From NCBI GenBank assembly GCA_003971905.1, contig RSEE01000092.1:124001-188000 (forward strand): DNA of 64,000 bases. The letters run 5' to 3'. Shown here piece by piece: positions 1,708 through 53,460 of this stretch (within the stretch, counting starts at the first letter, position 1; every line of letters begins with the position of its first letter). The DNA comes from Moniliella sp. 'wahieum'. Lineage: Eukaryota. A program made the translations under genes and the position numbers. The notes beneath the pieces were generated by a model. It ran no database searches, was not told the origin of the DNA, and saw only the letters and a list, made by a program, of their open reading frames with translations.

Positions 1708-4570
1708 TGCTGACCTTGCCTCGTGCGCTCGGCTATGGGGTTGCGGCACGAGCCAGGTGTCGGTGCATGCGAGTAGGTGGGCCTAGGTACAGGGCATGGG
1801 GACTGGTTCCGTATCCGCTGCGCCGCCTCTCCAGCGACGCAGATGGCCGGGACGACCCCCTTTCTTTAACCCCGATTGGCGATGACGACGATATTCTGTA
1901 CCTGCGTTGGCACCAGGTTCGAACACCGCCGTCGTCTCGCCCGCTCAAGCTACTGCCCATGCACTTCTCAATCCTTCCCCACGGACGGACCCTCTCCCGG
2001 ACAAGCCCGAGCCTAGGATAGAGGACGTCCTTCCCCCCCGCCTGGTCAGCGCTTCCTCCCTGAGGATCCCTTGGGGGATCCAGCATTTGGGCTGCAGCCC
2101 TGGTTGGTCCCGGCGTACCTGAGGCATCTGCTCCCAAAAGAGAAGGAGACTGCGCAGGAAGAAGCGCCAGCTGAACCCTCCAACCCAACGTCGGATGAAC
2201 CAAGACTGGACCAACCAAGAACGTTGGCTGATCCTACAGCTCAGCTGCAGCAGAACATCAGTTTCCTTCAGCAGCACGGCTACGTTCCTTCTGCATCAGC
2301 ATTGGACGGTGCGACGGCTAACGCGTTACCTGCCAAATCGGATGCGCAGACGGTGGCGCAGCTCCTTCGGTCCTTGTATGCCAATAGGAAAATGGGCGAG
2401 ATGCTGAAACAAGTGTCTAGCAAGCGCTATGCCAACGGTACGTGTGTTGTGTCTCTTTGCCGCACTAGGCCCTCCTAACTTATCTCTGCGCTAGACTTGC
2501 GCACGTTTGACTCGCCCCGCCCGCAAATGCTCGACTATGAGGTGGATGTTGGCTACACCGACTCGGACATGTGGGATGATTTGACCCCTTTGTTGGTTCG
2601 CGGGGAGAGCATCTCCGTCCCCCTTCCTCAGCGTCCGATGGGAGAACCGGGGGCGACCAATGGGCTCGGAGCTCAGGTCGACCTGCGCGGAAACTGACTG
2701 CTTCTGTGGATCGTGGGACGCCATCTTCCTCCGGCCTGGATGAATCCGAGGTGCGAGCGCCATTTGCTCTGGCGCAACAGGAGGTGTCGGATGTGCTGTC
2801 CGAGTCCGAGGAGGCAAGACGGCTCTACGACCCTCGTCTGGGCGGGCAAGAGTATCGTCCTGGCGCGCACAAGCCCAAGACAGCACCGCAAGCCCGGGCC
2901 GAGCTGCGCGCGTACATTTCCCATTTGATCCAGTGGCTGCTCACCACCACCCCGGCCCCCTACACTGTGGCGGAACTCAATGTGATTCTCGAACTGGGGC
3001 GCACACTCCGAGCGCAAACAGGCACGTGTCTCGGTCTCAAGGCCAGCTCGCTGTTCCACCATGCATGTGTGTCTTCCTCTCTTCCCGAACTGGGGCTTAA
3101 GGCGATTCTCGATCGCGTCCATACGGGTATCGATTATTCCCTACCGATTTGCCACATGCTCATGATGGGCCTGTACGATAAGATGTCAGCTCCGCTGCCC
3201 ACCTTACTTGTCTCGCTCTTCTTTGACCCGGTTCCGCAAACGCCGGGGGACCATCGCATCAAATGGCCAGCGTTTGCTCAGGCTCAACTCCGCGCTGCCC
3301 ACCCACCTTTGCCGCATGCAGTGGGAAAGACAAAGACGCCCGTTGCCGTGCTCGCGCCGTGTACCGTGTTGCGCGGTTCCAGCTCTGGCTGCGCATGCGG
3401 CTCTTGGTCCTCGTCAGTTCCTTGGCTACGGGACGCGTGATGGACGGGATGCTCTTGGCCTGCGTCGTGGGGGCAGCAATGCGCTTTCTGCACTTGGAGC
3501 CCTTGGTGTCAAGTCAAGGGATGAGTCGGTGCTGGACCCGGATTTGCTCCAGAGCCTGGACGAGACGTTCACTTTACTTGTTACCTCGTTGGAGGGGGGC
3601 GCACGCTGCACACAGTCCTCTCGGTCAGCTGCGCAAATCAAAAGCCTACGAGACGAAAAAGGTCAAGTCCTCGATCCTAATCTTGTCTTTTTCAATATGC
3701 ACGCCAAGCCGTATGGGGTGGAATGGGTTCGTGATGCAGCACGCTACTATGCGCTTCGTCGTGCTCCTTTCTTGTCCGCGGGGGAGGGGGGGAGGAGTGA
3801 TGTTGATAACCCACCGTTTCTTTCCCCATAACGGTCCGGCCGTCAGCACGACCCTGACGGCCTGCTTCAACATCTTCCTTCGCTCCAAACCAGCCTTTCA
3901 GGCCGCCAAGGAGATTCGCGCCCTCTTCACTCAGATGGGTCTGCTCGACGCCAGCCACCGTGAGGAGGACCGAATGAGACGGAGCACTACCTCTGTCTCC
4001 GTTGAGCCCGACACAACCAAGGTGACACCCCAACGTTCCAAACCATCTAGGCGCTTCGACAGCACCAAGTCCCGCACATCTACCAAGGACGCTAGGAAAG
4101 CCACGAAGGCCAAGGAGTCGCAGGAGCCCAAAGAATTCAAGGAACCCAGGAAGCCCAAGACGCCCAAGGAGTCCAAGAAGTTTAAGACGCCCAAGGAGCC
4201 GAAGACGCCTAAGAAGCCCAAAGAGCCCAAGGAGCCCAAAGAGCCCAAGGAGCCCAAAGAGCCCAAGGAGCCCAAAGAGCCCAAGGAGCCCAAGACGCCT
4301 AGGAAGCGTTTGACGCCCAAACACACTGAGCCGGCCATTCCCGCCAAATCGCTCAAGACACCCACGCCGTCCGAGACCTCCGCTGCGTCTCACGAACCCA
4401 CTGACAAGCCCGAGCTCAGCAGCAAGTCTGAAACTACCAGTCCTCTCCCACCCGCCCCCACATCGAAGCCCAAAAGCAAACCCAAGCCACCAGCCCATTC
4501 CACTCCACCCGCATATCCAAGGCCACCGCTAAATCCAAGTCGAGGAAATCTCAGACCCCAACTGCACTAG
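1708..4570 (+). CDS. Hypothetical, probably mitochondrial protein with a Lys/Glu/Pro-rich (KEP)n C-terminal tail; frameshifted, at least 1-2 introns
   Basis: Arg-rich, acid-free N-terminus (MLTLPRALGYGVAARARCRCMRV...RRLSS) resembles a presequence. Chained ORFs 1644-2021, 2071-2478, 2497-2697, 2706-3440, 3208-3831 and 3263-4570. Intron 2438-2494 (GTACGT...CTAAC...CTAG); probable intron starting 3711 (GTATGG). Family not recognised. Confidence 0.55.
4122..4305 (+). repeat. 9-bp coding tandem repeat (AAR GAG CCC) encoding KEP/KTP units
   Basis: PKEPKEPKEPKEPKEPKEPKEPKTP in ORF 3263-4570. Confidence 0.9.
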
Positions 4571-5202
4571 CACCTGCATCCAACCAACGCCCTGTTCCAA
4601 CGGAACAGTCCTCTCTCACCTCTGCATCTGAACCTACTCCTTCCCCCTCTCCCGCTCCTCTCCCTCCCCGTCTTCTTCCTCCTCTCTCTCGCCCTTTGCA
4701 CCATCGGCCAAACAGCTAGTCAAGGCCGAGTGCAACCGCCGGCTCGTCGGCCACGTGGACGGCCGCGCAAGAACCCGTTGCCAGTGCCCGAGCCTGAAGT
4801 GCCCATCATGTTTGTCCCGTTCCGCCGACAGAGGTGAGCGTGCGCAGCCACCCGCGTCAGCGGCGCAAGGTCAAGTCGCCGGTACTGGACATTACACTGG
4901 ACTAGTACTGGCATCCAATGGGTCCAAGCGGTCCCCGGTCGCCGGTCGCCAGTCGCGTCCAGCGACGGGACACCCCAGTGGTCTACTGGAAAGCGTGTGG
5001 GACAAGAACAGATTTAAGAGGAAGCGCATGGCGCATGACGCATGGCGCATGACGCGTGATGTGCAGGATGCATTGCATGACGCCGGACAAAAATATGCAT
5101 TTCTTTGCCCAGTCCGCCGTGCTGCGCCAGGCTGCTTGGTTGTAGGCTTTGTTGGGCGTGGGTCGGTATCTGTTCCGGTCTGTCCACCTTGCACGTGAAG
5201 TA

Positions 5203-5788
5203 TTAAGCCAGCTTGGCGAACAGCTTTGGCGCGGTGCACTCAGCTGCGCAGTGCGTCAAGTGGACTGCAGAAAGGACATGTCAGTTGGGCCGTGGATGGA
5301 GATGCAGGAGATACGCGGGAGAGATACGCACAGCTGGAGGGAAGATAGATGGGCAAGATGGCGAGCAAAGGGGGGAAAGGGAAGGGTGGGGGGTACGAAG
5401 CGCAAGAAAGCAAAAGGTTAGTACGTCAGGAACTGGGCTGAAATCAAAAAGAGAGGAGGGAAGGGCAAGGGAAAAAAGGGAAATGAGGTCACGTACAACT
5501 CCTCAATGCAGTCCTCGCCCTCGAACAGAAGCTTGCCAGCCTCGACACGGGTTTGGCATTCGTCAAAGTGGTGCTTGGCCGAGCTGCATTCCTTCTCCTC
5601 GCACGCAGCGTAGATCTCCTCGCGCGGGTCGACCGGCTCGTCGTCCTCCTCCTCTTCCTCCTCCTCACTCGCTTCCTCTTCCTCGCCTCCTCTTCCTCGG
5701 CGTGGAGGGTGGGGAAGAAGGAGGAGACGAAGCTGGTGACCGTGCCGAACACGCTGGGCTCCGACTCGCCAAAGGTAGTGAGAGACAT
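5203..5788 (-). CDS. QCR6: Cytochrome bc1 complex hinge subunit (Qcr6); exons 5788-5497, 5333-5332 (2-nt micro-exon), 5264-5203
   Basis: Acidic N-region, then DPREEIYAACEEKECSSAKHHFDECQTRV...EDCIEEFFHLTHCAAECTAPKLFAKLA*, a hinge-protein Cys pattern. Introns 5496-5334 and 5331-5265 have canonical signals. One indel near 5690 in the Glu-rich tract. Confidence 0.92.
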
Positions 5789-6144
5789 GGTCAGGGTGGT
5801 AGGGGCGGGAACACGCGCAGCCCACCAGCCGGCCACCCGGAAGCCCCCCAGCCTCTTCTGCCCAGCTGCCGGGGAGCCCATTTGTAAGCGCCCCGTTCCG
5901 CCCGCTGCGGCGGACTTTGCTTGTGAATCGCCAAAGGCAAGGTGCAATTTGAAATTGGCCCGGAGCGCAGCGTGTGCACGTGTGGCTCAAATTGTGAAAT
6001 TGTAAACGTGTGGACGTTTGAACATTTCATCGCCTCCTGTCTGTCGGCGGCCAGCATGCCACATGTCAGGCATGCCCAGCTGCACGGCTGCCACCGCCGT
6101 CCCCGTCCGCTCCTCCGCCGTCGCTCGCCACACGCTCGCCATTC

Positions 6145-6206
6145 CCCATCTCCATCCCCATCTCCATCCCCATCTCCATCCCCATCTCCATCTCCATCCC
6201 CATCCC
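6145..6206 (+). repeat. (CCATCY)n hexamer microsatellite in the divergent QCR6/TSC2 promoter
   Basis: Alternating CCATCT/CCATCC units seen directly. Confidence 0.85.
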
Positions 6207-6372
6207 CTCCACCCGCGCTCATCCCTCCCGCCTCATGGCTCTCTGAACCCTCCCGCCTCCCCCCGCCTCGTCTCGCTTCCCGTGCCCATTGCCCCAGTAC
6301 GCACGCCTCCTGCCACTCCCTTGTATGCGCAGCCCCCCGTCTGCCTTGCCTAACGCACCCCCCTCCGCGCAG

Positions 6373-37247: not shown

Positions 37248-37300
37248 TACATCTACACCTACACCTACACCTACACCTACACCTACACCTACACCTACAC
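37248..37300 (+). repeat. (TACACC)n hexamer microsatellite between the convergent WC-1 and C2H2 genes
   Basis: Seen directly. Nearby are (CTACCTT)n at 36443-36484 and (CCTA)n at ~37445-37468. Confidence 0.88.
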
Positions 37301-43940: not shown

Positions 43941-45576
43941 GGTGAAGACTAGGCAAGCAAGAAAGGTAAAGTAGCGTCAGCCATTTGCGATCCCTTGGAA
44001 CACCTTGCTCGTGCAGGACTGCGCGCCTTCTGCCCCCACTCACGTCCCGAGACCAACGTGCTTACCTGGACTTGAACTCGACGGTCGTGATCGCCAAGTA
44101 GGACAAGGGTGGGGGGGAGGTGGGACGGCCGAAGAACGAGCATGCTCCGTAGCTAAGAATAGGGTTCGACCATGCGGCGGAATTAATTGAGCGACACTGG
44201 CGCCGTGGGACCATGAACTCAAGCTAGAGCACTAGGGTTTCACCCCCCTGCCGCCTGTTAACGGTTACCCTGCCCAGCGCCTGCTTTGGCCTGCATTGCT
44301 GAACGTTCGAGTTGAACGTTGATGAGGGACGGTCGGTGCGGGCGAGCGGCAGCAGGCCAGTCTGGCTGACATGACCACCTCGGCGCACCGCCGCCTTCAA
44401 AAATACACCTCCATCCCCCATGATCCCATTTCTTCTTTTTGTTGGCCAAACTCTGGCGGCTCCAAAGGGAGAAGAATACTTCTCTTTGTCTCCCTTGCCC
44501 AGTAGTCTGGGTTTTCCCCAAGTCCGGTCTGACTTGGCTAAACTACTGCTTTGCTGATCCCCAATTATTGACGCATGCAACCGCATAGTTAACGAACGAG
44601 AGGCACCGGAGTTATCAGCTGTGCCCGTAGAGTGGCACTGTGGCCGATACCCGCATTCCGAGTCGCCCTGCCACCTATCTGCGTAGCTGTCCTGCAACCC
44701 AATCCCCTGTTGGGAGCCTGAAGCCGACTAGGGCACCAATCAAGGGTATGCAGCAAGACTAAAGGTGGTCTTCCTGTCCACAAGCCGTCGTCGTACTAGA
44801 GTAACCGCTGTCATTGCACAGTACTTCAACGGGGATGGGGGGGCTCGAGGATAATATAGGAAGAGGGTCAAACCCACAGTGTGACCCAAATAACTCCGTA
44901 TCCCGCCCCTAAACCGTTGTACAGTGTTCAAGTTAGTCTGTGTGCAAAATGGCACCAGTATCGGACAGCAAACCAATGTCAAATCTGGTGCAGGAAGTTG
45001 CTGGTCCTCATGTTCAAAGCTGAGCATGTTCAAAGCTAACCCGCCAGAACGAGGAGGAGGCGGAGAAGGAGGAACAGGGGCCGATGCTTTCTATGTGCCA
45101 AGCCTTGTTCGTTGCCATGATGCATGACGGAGTGTAGGGTGTTGATCAGAGTGTCGTTCTTGTTGACGCGGCCGATCGAGCAAATGTTCTGCAGCAGCGG
45201 CAGGTTACGACACGGCTTAGTAGATCAAGCCTGACATGGGGGCTGTGCCAGGGGGCCTGATGCGTGGCATTCCGACGGAGATGGGCGTGTGAGAGGGGGT
45301 GGGGATGGGAAGTAGTAACATGGTGTGTGGAAGTGCATGTGCTTGAAACGCACAGAGCAGCTTTCGGACGTGACTTGACGGTGAAGCCTCAATGCGGTTA
45401 CTGCCGGTTACCTAAGAATTCGGATGTCCGTGCGTCGGCGCATTCTGGTTGGCCGGTGACGCGGTGACGCAGCAGATCCAGTGATGGGCCGGTTTGGAGC
45501 ACGGCGACATGCGTTTGGGGGGAAACGCATCTTGGCCTGCGTTCTTCTCCGCTGCCTCTTCCTCCCTTCCTCCACC

Positions 45577-47128
45577 ATGTTTGCTCTCCGTGCCCGTCCG
45601 CTACTGTCGTTGGCCTCCCCAGCCGCCGGCGTGCGCCATCTGTCGGCGACGGCGCTGCGGCGCCAGGCAACGCCTGCCTACGTGTGCGTTGATATCCACG
45701 CTCCCATCGCGCGCTTTCTGCCGGGCTGACTGCTTTCTTCTGCTCCATCCAGAACAAGGTTCTCTACGAGCCCCTCGCGAGGCCGATCCCGAGGTGGCAA
45801 AGCTGATCCAGCGGGAGACATACCGCCAGTTCCGCGGGCTCGAACTGATCGCGAGCGAGAACCTCACCTCTGCCGCGGTCATGGAGGCGTCCGGGTCGAT
45901 CCTCACCAACAAGTACTCTGAGGGCCTGCCCGGTGCTCGCTACTACGGCGGGAACGAGGTGATTGACGAGCTGGAGCGGCTGTGCCAGAAACGAGCCCTT
46001 GCCGCGTTCGATCTTGATCCGGCAGTGTGGGGCGTGAATGTGCAACCCTACTCGGGCAGCCCCGCCAACCTGGCCGCCTTCACCGCGCTCCTCCAGCCGC
46101 AGGACCGCTTCATGGGCCTCGGCCTGAGCCACGGCGGCCATCTGACTCACGGTCATTACACCGCCACCAAGAAGATCTCTGCCTCTTCGATTTACTTCCA
46201 GTCCTACCCGTATTCTGTCGACAAGGAAACGGGGCTGGTCGACTACGATGCGCTGGCTGCCACCGCGGCCACCTTCAAGCCCAAGATGATTGTCTGTGGC
46301 GGTTCTGCCTATCCGGCCGAGTGGGAGTACGAGCGGCTCGCCCAGATTGCTAAGGACGTTGGGGGCGCGTACCTACTGTCCGACATGGCTCACATCTCCG
46401 GTCTGGTGGCAGCCGGCGTGCAGCGCTCGCCGTTTGAGGTGTACGTGGTGACCACCACCACCCACAAAACCCTCCGTGGACCTCGTGCCGGCTTGATCTT
46501 TTTCCGCAAGGACCGGTACGATGGCGCCCTCGAGGACAAAGTCAACGCCGCTGTCTTCCCGGGCTTGCAGGGCGGCCCGCACAACCACGCGATTGGCGGG
46601 ATCGCAGTGGCGCTCAAGCAGGTGGCCACTCCCGAGTTCAAGGCCTACGCCACGCAAACCATCAAGAATGCCCAGGCGCTCGGAAAGCGTTTGGCGTCGT
46701 ATGGCCACAAACTCCAGACGGGCGGGACGGCGAACCACTTGTTGCTCTGGGACTTGCGCCCGCTGGGCCTGACGGGTAGCAAGGTTGAGAAGTTGGCGGA
46801 CTTGGCTCATGTGACACTCAACAAGAATGCCGTGTCGGGGGACGTGTCGGCAGTGACGCCGCGCGGCGTGCGGATTGGCACGCCGGCGCTCACCTCGCGC
46901 GACATGGTTGAGAAGGATATGGAGGTGGTGGGCGACATGCTGCATGAGCTGGTACAGATCGCTCAGGCACTCCAGGAGGAGGCGGGCAGTAAGTTGCTCA
47001 AAGCCTTCTGGGCTCAGGCCACTACTGGTAACTCGCCTGCGCGCACGCGTCTCCTCGACTTGGCCCGCGTCGAGGCGTTCGCTACTCAGTTCCCGCTTCC
47101 GGGGGTGAAGGAGGTGGTGAAGCCATAA
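45577..47128 (+). CDS. SHM1: Mitochondrial serine hydroxymethyltransferase; intron 45682-45752
   Basis: Presequence [85 protein letters not shown]-lysine motif [23 protein letters not shown]. Confidence 0.96.
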
Positions 47129-49987
47129 GCAGCCCGCGACTACTAAAGGGGTGGGGATGGACAGCCTTTGTTTGTTGGAATGTGTATACAGAGGCGCAAT
47201 GCAATTATGCCATTTTTCTGCGTATAGACCGAGACGCCGCAACACACTGCATGCCCACAAGCTCATGTGCATGGAGGTGTGGATTGTCGGCTTACGCCAA
47301 CCACCGCCGTATTATTGCCTCTCGAAGGCCATAAGTAGATTGTGGTGGTGCGCTGCGCGTCTGTCTTTCAGTTGCACTGCTCTTGTTCAGGCCAGTCCGA
47401 TCATGATACCCGGATGCAGAGCGCCGAATGTAATAGACATCTCATCCAAACAAACGCCACAGTCCCGTTAGACTGGCGAGAGAAAGCCAGCGCGCACCTT
47501 ATCCACTCAGCTCTTTGCGGCCAGACATGGTCGCATGGGGGGCTCATCAGTACGACGCTTGTGCCACCCTCAAGGCCTATCCGGAGGTGGCTTGGCCGCC
47601 AGCTATGGAGAAGGGCTCTGCAGAGCGCTGGCGTTCCGATAATTTGACCCGTGTATACATCGCCATATGTCCAAGAGGGCATGCTGGGGCGTGCTGTGCG
47701 TATATGCGGCGTTCCATGAAGGATGCGGCTGTGGGATTTGGGCCGGAAACGGTCGAGCCCCTGCATGCGAAGTACCCGGCGAGCCCGAAGAAGTTTGGTG
47801 GTTCGGGAGATGTCGGAGCGGGCCCCGCCTGGACAGGCGAGACTAGACTGCAACGAGACCGACGCCGGTGCGCCCCCAATGTTTTTTTGGAGTTGGATGA
47901 TAAGAACATCTATCGCGCGGCAAGCAGCTTCTCCCGAGACCTGGGGGGAGGTTTGGGCGGTTTATACCCGTCGCGCCCAGTCTTGGCAACCATTATTGAA
48001 AACATAATGGGTGGCGTTTTATCTTTTGTCTCCCTGGAAAGCTCCCACATCCTGTTTCTATCTATCCTGAGATCTGATCCCTTCTGAATAGTATAAGCAG
48101 CTCTGTCTAAGGCTCGCTATAGCTGTGAGTTTCTTATCGACCATCCGGATGCTTACCGGCCAATCTCTTTCTCTGCACCCCTGGTTTATTACACTTTGGG
48201 CACACAGATAGTCCGCCTTCTTCCTTCTTCAGCTTTGACTCCTTCAACCTTACGCTGACGGAGTTACGAGACTCACGTCGATCGTGGTTATCTTGTAATT
48301 AGTGCTTGCTCTTCACCTATGACTCCATCATCTGATTTCGACTATACGGCGTCGAGTGCTGCATAATTGTGAAGTATCCCACGTTTTACCTTGGAGTATA
48401 TGAGCCCCATTCATCAATCAGAGGTTTTGGCGACCGCTTCTATTGGCTCCTGGGAAAGCTTGAGCTACGGCCTTTTTGTACGCAGGCAGCCACCCAAACT
48501 AATATTGATCGAGTGTCTCTCCCTCGCATCTACACCCGCTTGGTTCCGCTTGGTTCCGCTTGGTTCGGCCTGGAAGATCCGGGGCTGTACCGCCAAAACT
48601 GTGGGTGGTTCCGATTGGCCGTCCAAGGGCTTGCGCCTCTAAACTACAGGGGCGGGTCCCACACCGGGGCTCGCCCCCCGGACAGCCCATGATGGCCTTT
48701 CATATCTGAATCTGAGGTCACCGTAAAGGATACCGAGAGGTGGTGGAGATGCGGATAGTAAGTGGGCTCGGTGTAGATTGTACAGTCCATCATATCTGAG
48801 CCCTTCCTTCCTCGCGGCCCGTTATGGCCCATTTCTCATCTCTAAGTTGGGCGCAGGCTGGAGAGACACCCCGTTTGAGCACGCTCGACAGGTCGCGGTA
48901 CAGTAGTGTGCCATGGGCTATAAGCGGATACAGAGACAGAGATAAATCATGAAAACCTCCCCCTCTGTTTGCAGCAGCTTTTGGTATGTTCTTCGGCCTT
49001 TTCGATCTTGAGCCGCCGCCTGCTGGTGCTCCAGCTTGTCCGGATCTCAGACCCACTTGATCACACCGTTTGATCACCAATTGGCTGGTTAATAGTAGTA
49101 TGCGCTACCGGCGCGGGCACAGTAGTGACGTAGTATGTGTCTGAATGAAGCCTTCCGGGTCGGCAAGGATGGGAAGTGACAGCGGACGCCAAAGGCTGCT
49201 AGAGCTGGGATTGGACTGGGACAAGATTCGATGTGGCCGGAAGAGAACACAGGCGACTTCAGTGAACAGCTAAAAGTTGAGAGACGTTGCCACGATGGGG
49301 CGAGAAGACGGCCATACGAGGTGGCGAAGTTCCTGTACTGATCAATCGGTGATGAGGACAGGGGGTGTGAAACTGAACATGTTGATGGATCATGGGGAAC
49401 AGTTCATCAATGCAAAAACGTAAACGACGGGTGGCATGTGCCGTCTATCGTCGCAAAGAGTAATGCCATTTCGATGGGACTATTGTGGCCACCAGCTCTC
49501 ACTGGGGCAGAAGGCGCATATATTGTCGCGCGCATTTGTAGGAGTGCTGATGACTTGAGCCACCAGAGACTGGCCCAGAGAAGAAGCACATATGGGGTGT
49601 TCTTGTGTATATACCGGAAATAGTTATGACGTTCGCACATGGGGACTACAGGTTGAACGATCAATGATGCGACCTCGCTTATAGTTAGAAGGTGATGAGG
49701 ATATGCGAGCAGACAAGTAAGAGGTGTTTTGGCGTGCAAAGGAAGTCTTGAGAAACCTTGCCGCTTAATAAGTTGAGGCCATTCTTCATGCCTTCAAAGT
49801 GGCGGAGAAGTATTGTGGAGTGGAAAGTTCATGTGGTTATCGGGCGTCAATGGGGAAATACTAAGCCTGAACGAGCAAGGTGGCTGACAATAGACTCAGT
49901 GGTTATTACATCAACTTTAATTTGCGCTAGATTCAGTAAGAGATCATCAGGAGGCAGAAGATATAACAGCAGCAAGGGAGCCGTGGC

Positions 49988-50232
49988 TGTTGAGCCATCG
50001 GGTGGCTCATGCTTTGGCCAATGTCCTTCAGGTCCTCTCAGGCCTGAGAGTTCCGTTGTTTTTTCTCTCCTGTTTTTTTCCTTGTTCTGCAGCTTCGCCC
50101 GTGGTGGCATCTCGCCGTTTGATGCTCCTATATTGGGGTTGATGGTTAGCTTGGACTGCTGACACCACCCGTGCGATCGTATCCCTCAAGGACATTCTAG
50201 GACCATGAGGGCGCCAGATATCATCAATGGCA
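49988..50232 (+). mobile_element. Dispersed repeat family, copy B (more diverged)
   Basis: TGTTGAGCCATCGGGTGGCTCATGCTTTGGCCAATGTCCTT is nearly identical to the reverse complement of 56148-56189. Confidence 0.72.
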
Positions 50233-50499
50233 TTAGTACCTGCCCATATTTTGGTGCGGTAACCCCAATAGACCCAAGGCACCCCCTTAACAGTTCAAAC
50301 ATAAATAATGACTCAATTGTAGTAGGTAGATCCAATCCGCTCCATTCTTTATAATGGGTTCATGCAGTTGAGCCTTGCCCGTTTACACCCAGCCCTACCA
50401 TCAGCACAAATTACATTTTTCCGAGATAAGAAAATTCCCTGAACTTGAAGTACGAGCCCGAAGTATTATCCTTAATTATTCTCGACAACCTGAAATGCT

Positions 50500-53460
50500 A
50501 ACCCCACATCCTTGTCGTGCCCAATTGAGCAGCTCACCCGAATTAACAAAGGCCTTTGCTTTTCTGTTTTAACCCTGGTTACGAAGTGAAACTGCTTACA
50601 TTTATTTACTGCAGTCATTCCATACTCTCGATAATGAGAACAGTTGCTCTAGTGTCCAGCTACCATGACGCTGTCGTTATAGGGTAGGAAGAGGAATGCA
50701 CAGTGATTGATTTGGGATGTCAGCATGCGACTTCATGAGATCGGGTGTCCATCGGGAATGACAGAAGATGACCTGTACACGGATGGTCTAAACCTGCTAT
50801 AATGCAGTATCAATAGTAAGCGATACAGACATGTCAGAGTTTAGTTTAGATCACTAAATGCAGGCGTCTTCAAAAAAGTATCGGTTAATGTGACTTGGAG
50901 TAGAACCGATCTTGCGGGTGATGCAAAATCCTGATAAAGGTGGTAGGGTTCGGGTGGAAGTGGCGACGGTGGAACGGTGGCGAAGGTAGCGACGCAGCAC
51001 CATAGCGGTTCAAAGCCCCAGCAGACCTTAGCGTTACTTTCGAAGATTAGATTGCTCGAGGTGCCCGGGTTAAATTTGTCCCCTTGAAACGATAACACAT
51101 TCAAGTCGTCTATATGGGACTGTAGTACCAGCACAGACAGCTGAATAGGTATCCCTCCAGAGCAGCTATCCATCCAAAACAGCCATAATGTTGTCACCTC
51201 ACTGACAGCACACCACCTAATGCGACGCAGAACAGGTAATGGCTTTTGTGGTATCTGTCAGGCTCTCGGATGAGTGTCATAGCTCACACCAGTGGTGACG
51301 GATGGCAAACAACCTAACATTTCGATTACAAGCGATCATCTTTTCATCAAAGCAAAATGCTGATGAGAATAAATTCGACCACGTGGTAGCAGCTACACTC
51401 AGTGAATCGAGATGGTTCCAACTGTGGCCATTAACAATATCTCTTCCGTACGTCACCCACGAATACAAGTGGCAGTGTCGCAGCTGCAGTGAAGTGACGG
51501 AAACCAAGGTTGCTTACAAACGACAGGAGGAGAGCAGAAAGACGATTACAAGGGAGCACAAGGGTCATACAAAAAAGGAAAGAGGGGGATGACTGTGATC
51601 CTACATTAAGGACATGAACGAGTTAGAAGTAAGAAATTGATCCAGGACGATGGTAATCAGGTAAATGACGCCCTTTAGCAATGACTTATTCAGAATGGTA
51701 AGTGGGCTATCGGCTCTTGCTCTGCTTGAGCAAACACAGTTACAATTTGATCCACCTGGAAGGGGGGCCCTCTTGAAGCAAGCTCACCCCTATATAAGCC
51801 GAACATGCCCAAGCTAATGTTCAAGCCCAAGACATACCATTACCGACACGAGCGGCATACTTACCATCATAAAATTGACTCCACCCACGATGGGGAAACT
51901 CGTCTCTCATAGATGGGTGAATACTTTTAGGGACAGCATATGAGGAAACGAAACATGTCCTGGCATCGTCAACGAGGCGCAATCGCTGCAGCGAGATCGG
52001 CGCAAGTGAATCGCAGAAAGCGGGGGGCGACTGCTCATCAAGCGCCCCATCCATGGCTACAGGTACAGCATTGCCAATTTATCCAGGGCAAAGAAAGAAA
52101 GATTGGAGGGAGGTGGTCACCCAATTTTCTCCACTCTTTCAACAACAAACAAAATCAAAAACGTATTAACTGATGGTTGACGCATAGCGGCCGTTCATTC
52201 CCCATACCCCACGGATCGCACTGGTACCAGGCATTTGGAACCAAATAACTACCAAACAACTACCAAACGCATCCTACTGATGCCCACTTGCTTTGGACCA
52301 CATTTACTCTTAAGTCCCTTTTTCTTTCACTACACCTATACTGGCGCTTTTTTACTTTTGTCTACCAAACGACATTGGGGCGCAATCCCTATTGTTTTTT
52401 ACTTCAAAGACTTCCAAGCCTCTGGCGGTCGCATGATGCATCAATCATGCGCTCGGCTCGTCCAGTTGTCATCCTGGACAGCAGGGGTGTTGGCCAGTAG
52501 TGTGACCGTGCACAACTCTTCCAGACAGGCTATTCGTCCCAGCAGCCACTCATATTCCTCACTCTCCACATCCTGACAGAAGATCATCAATCCACAACCC
52601 GAGGTCTCCGGGTTCCATGGCAAGCGGGGAAGCTCACTGTGATCCTCCGGCTCTCACAGCGGATCACGAAAAGACATCTTTTATGTTTAAGATGTAAATA
52701 CCTTCAACAATGTAGGAGGAGTAATTTGCCATGGGTGAGGCAATTCTGTCAGCGTGCTGCAGATCAGTGACGTCGTCGATGTCACCACCCTGAAAGTCAG
52801 ATATGTCCTCGATGTCACCCCCTTGAACATCAGAAACGTCATTGACGTGCCCGTGGGCGACGTATCTGACGAATCTGATCTTCCTATGCTCGCTCTCCCT
52901 GAGTTACTATTGCTATTACACTTTATACTACTACTCATTTTAGCACCATCAAATGCAGTGCAATCGTCTTCGAGGGTACTTTTTTGCATTGCGATGGGTC
53001 AATATGGACTTGGAGGCTTGCCATGGAGAGGTCTTTGAAATGTATAGGCGCCAAATCACTCTTCAGTCTCTGAGTCGTCTATGTGATCGTCGTCCTCGCC
53101 ATCTGTGCCCTCTGCGCCAAAGAGATTGACTGCAGTGCCTTCGATGTCCCGTGCATCCTCCTCGTCTGTTATTTATGCCCGGGTTACTGCGATGTGACGG
53201 AGGTGGGTGAGTTGTACACGGGTCGCACGCCAGGCGATACAATTTTCAGGGTAACCTTGCGGAAGATGCGTGTCCGCAATGGCCTCGAAATTCTCCCATG
53301 CACTCGTCCAGCCCAGTAGATAGCTTGCGGGGCGATGAGTGAAAAAAGTCAGATGACCTGCTGGACGACAACGGGGTGGGGACGTACTTATGATCGGACA
53401 AAGAGACAGTGATGGCACTGAAATGTCACCGCAGCGGTTGCTGCTGTTCAGACTCCGGTT
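50500..53460 (-). pseudogene. Decayed, lower-GC coding-like sequence, probably a transposon relic
   Basis: A minus-strand frame with acidic segments (TDEEDARDIEG...EDDDHIDDSETEE; QGGDIEDISDFQGGDIDD) is interrupted by in-frame stops. Visibly more AT-rich than the genes. Family not identified. Confidence 0.35.

What the first reader, a model, noticed from the sequence alone, without database searches (positions are those of the whole stretch)
5265..5496. A 2-nucleotide micro-exon (CT) is required to build QCR6
Seen (minus strand): exon 1 ends ...GAG GAG TT|GTACGT (donor 5496). A perfect TACTAAC branch point (5423-5417) is followed by an ~80-nt AG-free pyrimidine tract ending CCTCCAG (5335-5334). 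Then come just CT (5333-5332), a second donor GTGCGT (5331), a CTGAC branch point and CTGCAG (5265), then exon 3 TC CAC TTG... Joining exon 1 directly to exon 3 (TT+TC) is out of frame. Including CT gives TTC TTC = E-E-F-F-H-L, matching the yeast Qcr6 motif EDCVEEFFHL (established). An exon this short is far below normal exon-definition size, implying ordered or nested splicing. The distant strong branch point may enforce the order. Skipping would frameshift the C-terminus, so it could act as a regulatory switch. Automated annotation would miss it.
Basis: partly seen in the sequence, partly recalled or inferred. Interest (0 to 1): 0.82.

Follow-up and report, generated by a model that had tools for sequence, protein, structure and literature searches.

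The report
Two-base exon in fungal QCR6
A respiratory-chain gene of a smut-related fungus reads correctly only if a two-letter exon between two ordinary introns is spliced in; such tiny exons are already known in fungi, so this is a credible but unsurprising example that gene-finding software tends to miss.

Summary
The minus-strand gene is QCR6, the hinge subunit 6 of the cytochrome bc1 complex (Pfam PF02320), in a basidiomycete of the Ustilaginomycotina.

Exon 1 ends in phase 2 (TT|GTACGT). The last exon starts AG|TC-CAC. Exactly two residues must lie between EE and H, as in 112 of 141 homologues. The CT at 5333-5332, flanked by CAG and GTGCGT, supplies the missing bases. That model scores best of 191 splice models (102.8 bits; best single intron 76.9; skipping 62.8).

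AG-NN-GTRNGT arises in 0.08% of composition-matched resamples of the interval. Read-through homologues from relatives show the same donor/acceptor phase clash and compatible AG-CT-GT sites. One homologue carries exactly the frameshift expected from skipping the CT.

There is no RNA evidence. No orthologous DNA could be fetched.

Two-base exons are already documented in fungi: 57 in Coprinopsis. This is a new member of a known kind.

The "regulatory switch" and "enforced order" ideas have no support. A second gene in the window has one too.

The parts
5497..5788 (-). QCR6 exon 1: ATG at 5788-5786, N-terminal segment, acidic run, first helix of the hinge domain. It ends in codon phase 2 (..GAG GAG TT).
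   Evidence: Pfam UCR_hinge profile positions 1-44 of 65, 39.8 bits against a cut-off of 27.2. The N-terminus closely matches the start of homologue P0123.
5684..5698 (-). Zone of an apparent one-base frameshift inside exon 1. The ATG frame and the hinge-domain frame differ by one base. The most likely site is between GC (5686-5685) and GAGG.
   Evidence: Frame translations. The homologues P0122, P0123 and P0124 have one continuous ORF here. No credible intron restores the frame. The zone lies in an imperfect 14-nt tandem repeat at 5644-5699.
5334..5496 (-). Intron 1, 163 nt: donor GTACGT (5496-5491), acceptor CCTCCAG (5340-5334).
5417..5429 (-). Branch-point region of intron 1: CTGAC (5429-5425) and TACTAAC (5423-5417; branch A at 5418, 84 nt before the acceptor G).
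   Evidence: One search lists these as the only CTRAY motifs in intron 1.
5334..5416 (-). An 83-nt, 83% pyrimidine tract free of AG except for its last two bases (an AG-exclusion zone between the branch point and the 3' splice site).
   Evidence: No significant RNA structure (z = +0.88).
5332..5333 (-). Two-base micro-exon CT. It supplies the third base of the first Phe codon and the first base of the second.
   Evidence: It restores the frame and the EEFFHL motif. Best of 191 splice models.
5265..5331 (-). Intron 2, 67 nt: donor GTGCGT (5331-5326), branch CTGAC (5284-5280; branch A at 5281, 16 nt before the acceptor G), acceptor CTGCAG (5270-5265). No internal AG.
5203..5264 (-). Last exon: TC + H L T H C .. 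K L A + TAA (stop at 5205-5203). This is the second helix of the hinge domain.
   Evidence: Pfam UCR_hinge profile positions 46-64, 25.3 bits. It aligns to the C-termini of homologues.

Best explanation
The locus is the nuclear gene for QCR6 (cytochrome bc1 subunit 6, the hinge protein) of a Ustilaginomycotina fungus. Its coding sequence is interrupted, inside the two Phe codons of the conserved C-x-E-E-F-F-H motif, by two separate ordinary U2-type introns. These are 163 and 67 nt long and lie only two bases apart. A two-base exon (CT) must therefore be kept in the mRNA.

Shown here:
- Both introns carry their own donor, branch motif and acceptor.
- Only inclusion of CT gives the conserved protein.

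Inferred, step 1: each intron is recognised across the intron (intron definition) and removed in its own reaction, in either order. After either removal the other intron is flanked by a normal-sized exon.

Inferred, step 2: the unusually long, AG-free pyrimidine spacer places the branch-site complex of intron 1 84 nt before its acceptor. It is thus well away from the U1 site of intron 2, which would reduce steric conflict.

Inferred, step 3 (evolution): intron 2 occupies an old basidiomycete intron position (T|TC of the second codon). Intron 1 is a later addition two bases upstream, in one subgroup of Ustilaginomycotina.
For: Family and spacing:
- Exon 1 matches Pfam UCR_hinge positions 1-44 and the last exon matches 46-64. 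Exactly two residues must bridge EE and H.
- 112 of 141 homologues have exactly two residues there: FF 102, LF 6, MF 3, FL 1.
- Solved fungal bc1 subunit-6 chains show EDCIEEFFHL.

Splice models:
- CT inclusion gives ..EEFFHLTHC..; skipping gives a stop after 10 codons.
- An HMM was built from the 112 homologues. The CT model scores 102.8 bits, the best of 191 models: 12 single-intron, 174 two-intron and 5 named.
- The next model scores 96.5 bits and uses weak donors and a 4-nt exon. The best single intron scores 76.9, skipping 62.8 and read-through 63.5.

Signals in the interval:
- It has only four AGs and three CTRAY motifs, placed as two introns need.
- AG-NN-GTRNGT arose in 0.08% of resamples. 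About 0.02 are expected per 232 nt at the window-wide rate.

Relatives:
- 8 of the 29 non-standard homologue tails can only have a donor after the second base of the first codon, as here.
- All 7 tails that reach the C-terminus are compatible with AG|TY-CAY.
- The close relatives P0122 (89% identity) and P0123 (85%) each hold two sites compatible with AG|CT|GTRNGT. Shuffles reach this in 1.0% and 0.6% of trials. One site sits at the same offset, 194 nt, in both.
- Two controls with the other donor class have none. A third has one, at chance level.
- In a shifted frame, the tail of P0126 can read 17-18 of 20 positions of a true QCR6 C-terminus, stop included. It is the TT+TC join.

Precedent:
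- 57 two-base exons in Coprinopsis cinerea from long reads (passages of PMC12230235).
- One-base exons in Fusarium CYP621A and in Arabidopsis APC11 (abstract).
Against: - No transcript was seen. No orthologous DNA could be fetched, so all evidence from relatives is degenerate back-translation of read-through proteins.
- The sequence is not error-free or not intact. Exon 1 has a one-base frameshift, and the SHMT gene at 45485-47128 has another.
- A loose whole-intron pattern is not enriched in the window: 23 found against 31.7 expected. The genome looks intron-poor, so two introns 2 nt apart are unlikely a priori.
- The 84-nt distance from branch point to acceptor is long for fungi (recalled, not measured here).
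- Donor 1 could instead pair with branch 2 and acceptor 2, which is skipping.
- The source of P0126 is unknown. If it is a transcript rather than a gene model, it would show real skipping in a relative.
- P0122 can also be read with a weaker donor two bases downstream, which would need no micro-exon.
Confidence: 0.78

Rival explanations
1. Sequence error. The true gene has one 232-nt intron, and the phase clash comes from miscalled bases at the exon edges in this assembly.
For: Two one-base frameshifts were found in the two genes examined closely: QCR6 exon 1 and SHMT. Both lie at GC^GAGG. Indels therefore exist in this window.
Against: - One indel cannot fix the junction. TT+TC is 4 bases: 5 bases is still out of frame, and 3 bases would lose a residue that 112 of 141 homologues keep.
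- Two precisely placed errors would be needed.
- Independent relatives show the same TT|GT donor phase (8 tails) and the same AG|TY-CAY acceptor (7 of 7 tails).
- The internal AG|CT|GTGCGT and its own branch site are unexplained by this idea.
Confidence: 0.04
2. Dead or decaying copy. The exon 1 frameshift is real, the gene is a pseudogene, and the splice architecture is a relic that no longer yields protein.
For: As assembled, the ATG frame runs into a basic nonsense peptide and a stop. The frameshift lies in an imperfect 14-nt tandem repeat prone to slippage.
Against: - Everything else is intact: splice signals, all conserved Cys, the stop codon, and 85-89% identity to relatives.
- A second conserved gene shows the same kind of single-base defect, which points to sequence quality.
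- This rival does not contradict the micro-exon architecture itself.
Confidence: 0.08
3. The CT is skipped in most transcripts. Donor 1 is joined to acceptor 2, giving a C-terminally truncated protein or an unproductive mRNA. Inclusion is minor or regulated, as in the reader's "switch".
For: Donor 1, branch 2 and acceptor 2 form a legal 232-nt intron. P0126 is exactly such a join in another species, and its origin is unknown.
Against: - The skipped product loses the second helix and its conserved Cys residues, and scores 62.8 against 102.8 bits.
- The strong TACTAAC is followed by an AG-free tract that ends at the first acceptor. That fits use of that acceptor.
- The CT-compatible motif recurs in relatives.
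- There is no evidence of regulation.
Confidence: 0.06
4. A different two-intron solution is used, for example a 4-nt exon CTGT with donors GTGACC and GCGTAT. This would give EELYLFHL.
For: Second-best model (96.5 bits).
Against: - It needs two weak donors, one of them a GC donor, while perfect GTACGT and GTGCGT donors lie beside them.
- It inserts two residues where 112 of 141 homologues have none.
Confidence: 0.02

Closest known systems
Two-base (and 1- and 3-base) internal exons in Coprinopsis cinerea, found with long-read transcripts (PMC12230235; passages read)
   Same: - A basidiomycete fungus.
- Internal exons of 2 nt (57 in 50 genes) between ordinary introns.
- Omitting the tiny exon often breaks the reading frame (an alternative stop in 63 of the 89 gene models with an exon of 3 nt or less), and annotation tends to miss it.
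   Different: - Those exons are backed by transcripts; this one is not.
- Coprinopsis is intron-rich, whereas this genome looks intron-poor.
[quoted passage not shown]
One-base exon of Fusarium CYP621A genes (PMC12940212; abstract, Results and Discussion read)
   Same: - The same logic: incompatible exon phases inside a conserved motif.
- An over-long "intron" that holds AG-N-GT.
- Conservation across orthologues, and a frame restored only with the tiny exon.
   Different: - 1 nt rather than 2, in an ascomycete and a P450 gene.
- Supported by SRA reads and by 20 orthologous genes at the DNA level, which could not be done here.
Single-nucleotide exon of Arabidopsis APC11 (PMC4674806; abstract read)
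   Same: A constitutive ultra-short exon between two canonical introns. The original annotation was wrong.
   Different: A plant gene, with a 1-nt exon, proven experimentally with reporter constructs.
Stwintrons and stwintron-mediated intron shift in Pezizomycotina (PMC5587772; abstract read)
   Same: - Two splicing reactions are needed to clear one intervening region.
- Orthologues carry discordant intron positions a base or two apart. Here donors lie either after base 2 of codon 1 or after base 1 of codon 2.
   Different: - In a stwintron the inner intron interrupts a splice signal of the outer one, and no exon bases lie between them.
- Here the two introns are independent and 2 nt stay in the mRNA.
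Recursive splicing at AG|GT ratchet points (PMC6224609; search listing only)
   Same: A 3' splice site sits immediately next to a 5' splice site, and a long intervening region is removed in steps.
   Different: A ratchet point leaves no bases behind. Here CT is retained and is coding.

Membership tests
QCR6 / UCR_hinge (Pfam PF02320), subunit 6 of the cytochrome bc1 complex | Profile match above the curated cut-off | tested here: met
   Exon 1 alone scores 39.8 bits against a cut-off of 27.2 and covers profile positions 1-44 of 65. PDB bc1 subunit-6 chains match the homologue P0125.
QCR6 / UCR_hinge (Pfam PF02320), subunit 6 of the cytochrome bc1 complex | Second helix with conserved Cys, placed at the correct spacing after C-x-E-E | tested here: met
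   The last exon matches profile positions 46-64 (25.3 bits). With CT included, the model scores 102.8 bits against an HMM of 112 homologues.
QCR6 / UCR_hinge (Pfam PF02320), subunit 6 of the cytochrome bc1 complex | Acidic N-terminal region before the hinge domain | tested here: met
   A run of Glu/Asp precedes the domain in the translation, as in the homologues.
QCR6 / UCR_hinge (Pfam PF02320), subunit 6 of the cytochrome bc1 complex | One uninterrupted reading frame from the ATG through exon 1 | tested here: not met
   The ATG frame and the domain frame differ by one base near 5686-5684. No credible intron repairs this. Relatives have one ORF here.
Ultra-short (3 nt or less) internal exon between two U2-type introns | A canonical acceptor directly before the exon and a canonical donor directly after it | tested here: met
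   CCTCCAG|CT|GTGCGT at 5340-5326. The motif is rare by chance.
Ultra-short (3 nt or less) internal exon between two U2-type introns | Each flanking intron is complete on its own (donor, branch motif, plausible length) | tested here: met
   Intron 1 is 163 nt with GTACGT and TACTAAC. Intron 2 is 67 nt with GTGCGT and CTGAC 16 nt before its acceptor.
Ultra-short (3 nt or less) internal exon between two U2-type introns | The flanking exon phases clash without the exon and are restored with it, keeping a conserved motif | tested here: met
Ultra-short (3 nt or less) internal exon between two U2-type introns | The same tiny exon is present in orthologous genes | tested here: inconclusive
   Only protein-level inference was possible. 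Compatible AG|CT|GTRNGT sites occur in P0122, P0123 and P0147. P0126 has the skip-type frameshift. Donor and acceptor phases are tabulated. No orthologous DNA was obtainable.
Ultra-short (3 nt or less) internal exon between two U2-type introns | Transcripts that contain the exon | not testable with these tools
Stwintron (spliceosomal twin intron) | An inner intron interrupts the donor, branch or acceptor of an outer intron. Its removal creates the outer intron's signal, and no exon bases lie between them. | tested here: not met
   No contiguous deletion with canonical ends restores the conserved frame: the best of the 12 in-frame single-intron models scores 76.9 bits. The two introns are separated by coding bases.
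Recursive splice site (zero-length ratchet point) | AG directly abuts GT, and nothing is retained in the mRNA | tested here: not met
   Two bases lie between AG (5335-5334) and GT (5331-5330), and they are needed for the frame.

The most novel reading that the evidence does not exclude
The CT exon is not a one-off. It may be a conserved feature of QCR6 across a whole subgroup of Ustilaginomycotina. On this reading it arose when a second intron was inserted two bases upstream of an ancient basidiomycete intron. The long AG-free pyrimidine spacer would then keep it spliceable by holding the upstream branch-site complex away from the downstream 5' splice site.

The locus would then be a natural example of a two-intron stage behind the apparent 2-nt intron 'sliding' between orthologues. 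It would also be a simple model for how intron-defined spliceosomes cope with a 3' and a 5' splice site that almost overlap.
Probability: 0.35. Interest if true: 0.55.

Novelty: new member of a known kind. Interest (0 to 1): 0.4.

Why it matters
- Practical value: gene callers are likely to truncate, frameshift or read through QCR6 here and in related fungi. Several such models are already in public protein sets. Comparative studies of respiratory complex III subunits in these fungi therefore inherit errors.
- Biological value: the locus adds a housekeeping-gene example, in an apparently intron-poor lineage, to the short list of exons of 1-2 nt.
- Evolutionary value: relatives show both neighbouring donor positions. 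The locus therefore offers a tractable case for asking how introns come to lie a base or two apart.
- It does not overturn anything known about splicing.

Tried and rejected
- Orthologous DNA. No fungal genome or RNA-seq collection is on hand, so orthologue DNA and transcripts stayed unchecked.
- Cluster look-up. It was meant to learn the sources of the unnamed homologues, but the shared database was switched off. The origin of P0126 (gene model or transcript) therefore stayed unknown.
- First word-based protein search. It found only one distant hit. The exhaustive search and the profile search were needed.
- Loose whole-intron pattern (GTRHGT..CTRAY..YAG). It is not enriched over a Markov background: 23 found against 31.7 expected. 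It was dropped as evidence.
- An intron to repair the exon 1 frame. All GT/GC..AG pairs of length 3n+2 were listed. None has a good donor, a branch site and a homologous product. Rejected.
- GC3-based scan for further frameshifts at GCGAGG sites. Too noisy to use.
- RNA structure across both introns. Not different from shuffles, z = +0.88.
- Rfam on 4900-6100. Nothing near any gathering score.
- Pfam on the antisense ORF and on the three intron-spanning ORFs. Nothing found.
- Stwintron and recursive-splicing readings. Rejected (see the membership test).
- Literature. A search for QCR6 with intron, basidiomycete and microexon found 9 papers holding at least 3 of the 4 terms. The 8 listed hold no occurrence of QCR6. 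The 5 text supplements of PMC12230235 do not mention hinge, QCR6 or PF02320. Its micro-exon gene table may not be among the files held.

Full report
**What is in the sequence**

- Exon 1 ends GAG GAG TT, followed by GTACGT (5496-5491).
- CTGAC (5429-5425) and TACTAAC (5423-5417) follow.
- Then comes an 83-nt tract (5416-5334) that is 83% pyrimidine. Its only AG is its last two bases.
- Then CT (5333-5332) and GTGCGT (5331-5326).
- CTGAC (5284-5280) lies 16 nt before CTGCAG (5270-5265).
- The last exon reads TC CAC TTG ... TAA (stop at 5205-5203).

The two putative introns are 163 and 67 nt. The 232-nt interval contains only four AG dinucleotides: two before the first branch region, one at each proposed acceptor. 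It contains only three CTRAY motifs: two in intron 1 and one in intron 2.

**What the gene is**

Exon 1 matches Pfam UCR_hinge (PF02320) over profile positions 1-44 of 65, at 39.8 bits against a cut-off of 27.2. The last exon matches positions 46-64. The gene is therefore QCR6, subunit 6 (hinge protein) of the cytochrome bc1 complex.

The serine hydroxymethyltransferase gene at 45485-47128 has its best named relatives in Violaceomyces and Malassezia, at 71% identity. The best named QCR6 relatives are Tilletiaria, Violaceomyces and Acaromyces, at 67-69% over the hinge region. The organism is thus a basidiomycete of the Ustilaginomycotina without a close named relative in the searched sets.

**Why two extra bases are needed**

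The Pfam alignment leaves exactly two profile positions between the EE that ends exon 1 and the H that starts the readable part of the last exon. Of 141 homologues collected, 112 have exactly two residues there: FF 102, LF 6, MF 3, FL 1. The other 29 are truncated, read-through or mis-spliced at this point. Solved fungal bc1 structures show EDCIEEFFHL.

Exon 1 contributes TT and the last exon contributes TC. Joining them directly gives a frameshift and a stop after 10 codons. Adding CT gives TTC TTC, that is Phe-Phe, and the normal C-terminus.

**Ranking of alternatives**

I listed all in-frame, stop-free splice models that reach the stop codon. There were 12 with one GT/GC-AG intron and 174 with two introns and an internal exon of 1-40 nt. 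I added five named models: micro-exon, skipping, read-through and each intron retained. All were scored against an HMM built from the 112 well-formed homologues.

| Model | Bits |
|---|---|
| CT micro-exon | 102.8 |
| Next best: 4-nt exon, donors GTGACC and GCGTAT, two inserted residues | 96.5 |
| Best single intron | 76.9 |
| Read-through | 63.5 |
| Skipping | 62.8 |

The top-scoring model is also the only one that uses two strong donors.

**Chance**

AG-NN-GTRNGT occurs 23 times on both strands of the window, against 11.87 expected. That is about 0.02 expected in 232 nt. In 20,000 resamples with the interval's own AG-poor composition, it appeared in 0.08%. The full set-up (second exon base T, plus a branch motif 5-40 nt before the final AG) appeared in 0.01%.

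As a caution, a loose whole-intron pattern is not enriched in the window: 23 found against 31.7 expected. I do not use it as evidence, and the genome looks intron-poor.

**Evidence from relatives**

No fungal DNA could be fetched. Many homologues, however, are read-through ORFs whose residues constrain the underlying bases. I tested compatibility by degenerate back-translation.

*Donor and acceptor positions.* Among the 29 non-standard tails:
- 8 can only have a consensus donor after the second base of the first codon. This is the position used here.
- 11 fit a consensus donor two bases further on, after the first base of the second codon. In 5 of these the first position is impossible.
- 4 are ambiguous.
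- All 7 tails that run on into the C-terminus are compatible with an acceptor AG|TY-CAY, as here.

So two donor positions 2 nt apart exist among relatives, while the visible acceptors are all of one kind. A gene with the upstream donor therefore has the same phase clash as the window.

*Compatible micro-exon sites.*
- The closest relatives are P0122 (89% identity) and P0123 (85%). Each holds two sites compatible with AG|CT|GTRNGT inside the read-through.
- Shuffles reach two sites in 1.0% and 0.6% of trials. In both proteins one site implies a first intron of 194 nt.
- Two controls of the other donor class have no such site. A third has one, at chance level.

*The skipped join in another species.* The annotated tail of P0126 (63% identity) follows EE. 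Read in a shifted frame, it can encode 17-18 of 20 positions of genuine QCR6 C-termini, including the stop. It is the direct TT+TC join. Its source could not be looked up. It is either a gene model that missed the tiny exon or, less comfortably, a real skipped transcript.

*A short case.* P0147 has only 62 nt between the two exon edges, with one compatible site that splits it into 23 + 2 + 37 nt. That is too short for most fungi. It is conceivable where introns average 30 nt, as in the curated Malassezia sympodialis annotation (Table 2 of PMC5389616). I leave this case open.

**Likely mechanism**

- Shown: two complete, independent introns flank CT.
- Inferred: each is recognised across the intron and removed separately. 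Whichever goes first, the other is then flanked by an exon of normal size, so no fixed order is required and nothing is nested.
- The strong branch motif 84 nt upstream of the first acceptor, followed by a tract without AG, fits use of the first AG after the branch point.
- It also puts the branch-site complex of intron 1 well away from the U1 site of intron 2, which overlaps the first acceptor. I propose that this spacer is what makes the arrangement workable. This is inference. That 84 nt is long for fungi is recalled, not measured here.
- The region has no significant RNA structure (z = +0.88).
- Nothing supports regulated skipping.

**Caveats found on the way**

The ATG at 5788-5786 opens a frame whose first 34 residues closely match the start of P0123. 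The hinge domain lies in another frame. One base appears to be missing near 5686-5684, and no credible intron repairs this. The site lies in an imperfect 14-nt tandem repeat.

The SHMT gene has the same kind of defect. Nine residues match homologues in one frame and the continuation lies in the next, at about 45777. Both defects sit at GC^GAGG.

So the window contains indels, or the genes are damaged. This cannot explain the junction, for three reasons:
- One indel leaves 5 or 3 bases instead of 6.
- Independent relatives share the same phases.
- The internal splice signals would remain unexplained.

**Comparison with what is known**

- Exons of two bases are documented. The long-read annotation of Coprinopsis cinerea reports 57 in 50 genes, plus 13 of 1 nt and 27 of 3 nt.
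- A one-base exon was inferred by the same phase logic in Fusarium CYP621A and confirmed with SRA reads.
- Arabidopsis APC11 has one proven experimentally.
- The locus is not a stwintron or a recursive splice site (see the membership test). The coexistence of two neighbouring intron positions does recall the stwintron-based one-base intron shift.
- I found no paper linking QCR6 with a micro-exon.

**Verdict**

The interpretation that a CT micro-exon is required is well supported in silico (confidence about 0.78), but it lacks RNA proof. The switch and ordering ideas are unsupported. It is a new member of a known kind, of moderate interest.

Noticed in passing
window 5684-5698 (minus strand), inside QCR6 exon 1: The ATG frame and the hinge-domain frame differ by one base. 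As assembled, the gene would translate into a basic nonsense peptide. Relatives have one ORF here. The site lies in an imperfect 14-nt tandem repeat (5644-5699).
   Followed up: partly
window about 45753-45800 (plus strand), 5' part of the SHMT gene (45485-47128): There is a second apparent one-base frameshift. Residues matching homologues (NKVLY.PLA) lie in one frame and the continuation (EADPEV) in the next. The sequence context, GC^GAGG, is the same as at the QCR6 defect. This suggests systematic indel errors in the assembly.
   Followed up: partly
window 45684-45752 (plus strand): A likely 69-nt intron in SHMT carries GTGCGT, CTGAC and CAG, the same signal types and size as QCR6 intron 2. 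The exact donor (GTGTGC or GTGCGT) was not settled.
   Followed up: partly
homologues P0137, P0140, P0146, P0147, P0185, P0226 compared with window 5600-5625: Several relatives carry a read-through insertion after I-Y-E-G. This implies another intron upstream of the hinge domain. The window's gene reads straight through this point, so that intron is absent here.
   Followed up: no
Tilletia homologues P0177, P0224, P0233, P0237; Pseudozyma hubeiensis P0185; Mycena latifolia P0256: Named public gene models that are frameshifted, shortened or retain intron sequence at this same QCR6 junction. The junction is an annotation trouble spot well beyond this genome.
   Followed up: partly
window 6143-6207: A tandem repeat of a 12-nt unit (5.4 copies, 94% matches) lies in the region upstream of the QCR6 start.
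   Followed up: no
window 5024-5055: A short 7-nt / 14-nt tandem repeat (GCGCATG) lies just downstream of the QCR6 stop.
   Followed up: no
window 4122-4307 (plus strand), within ORF 3227-4570: A 9/18/27-nt in-frame tandem repeat encodes a long Pro-Lys-Glu repeat. The ORF has no Pfam match.
   Followed up: no
window 37257-37296 (minus strand): A hexamer repeat (AGGTGT) accounts for six of the 23 AG-NN-GTRNGT matches in the window.
   Followed up: no
window 48001-52000: G+C drops to 0.49 here, against about 0.6 elsewhere in the window.
   Followed up: no
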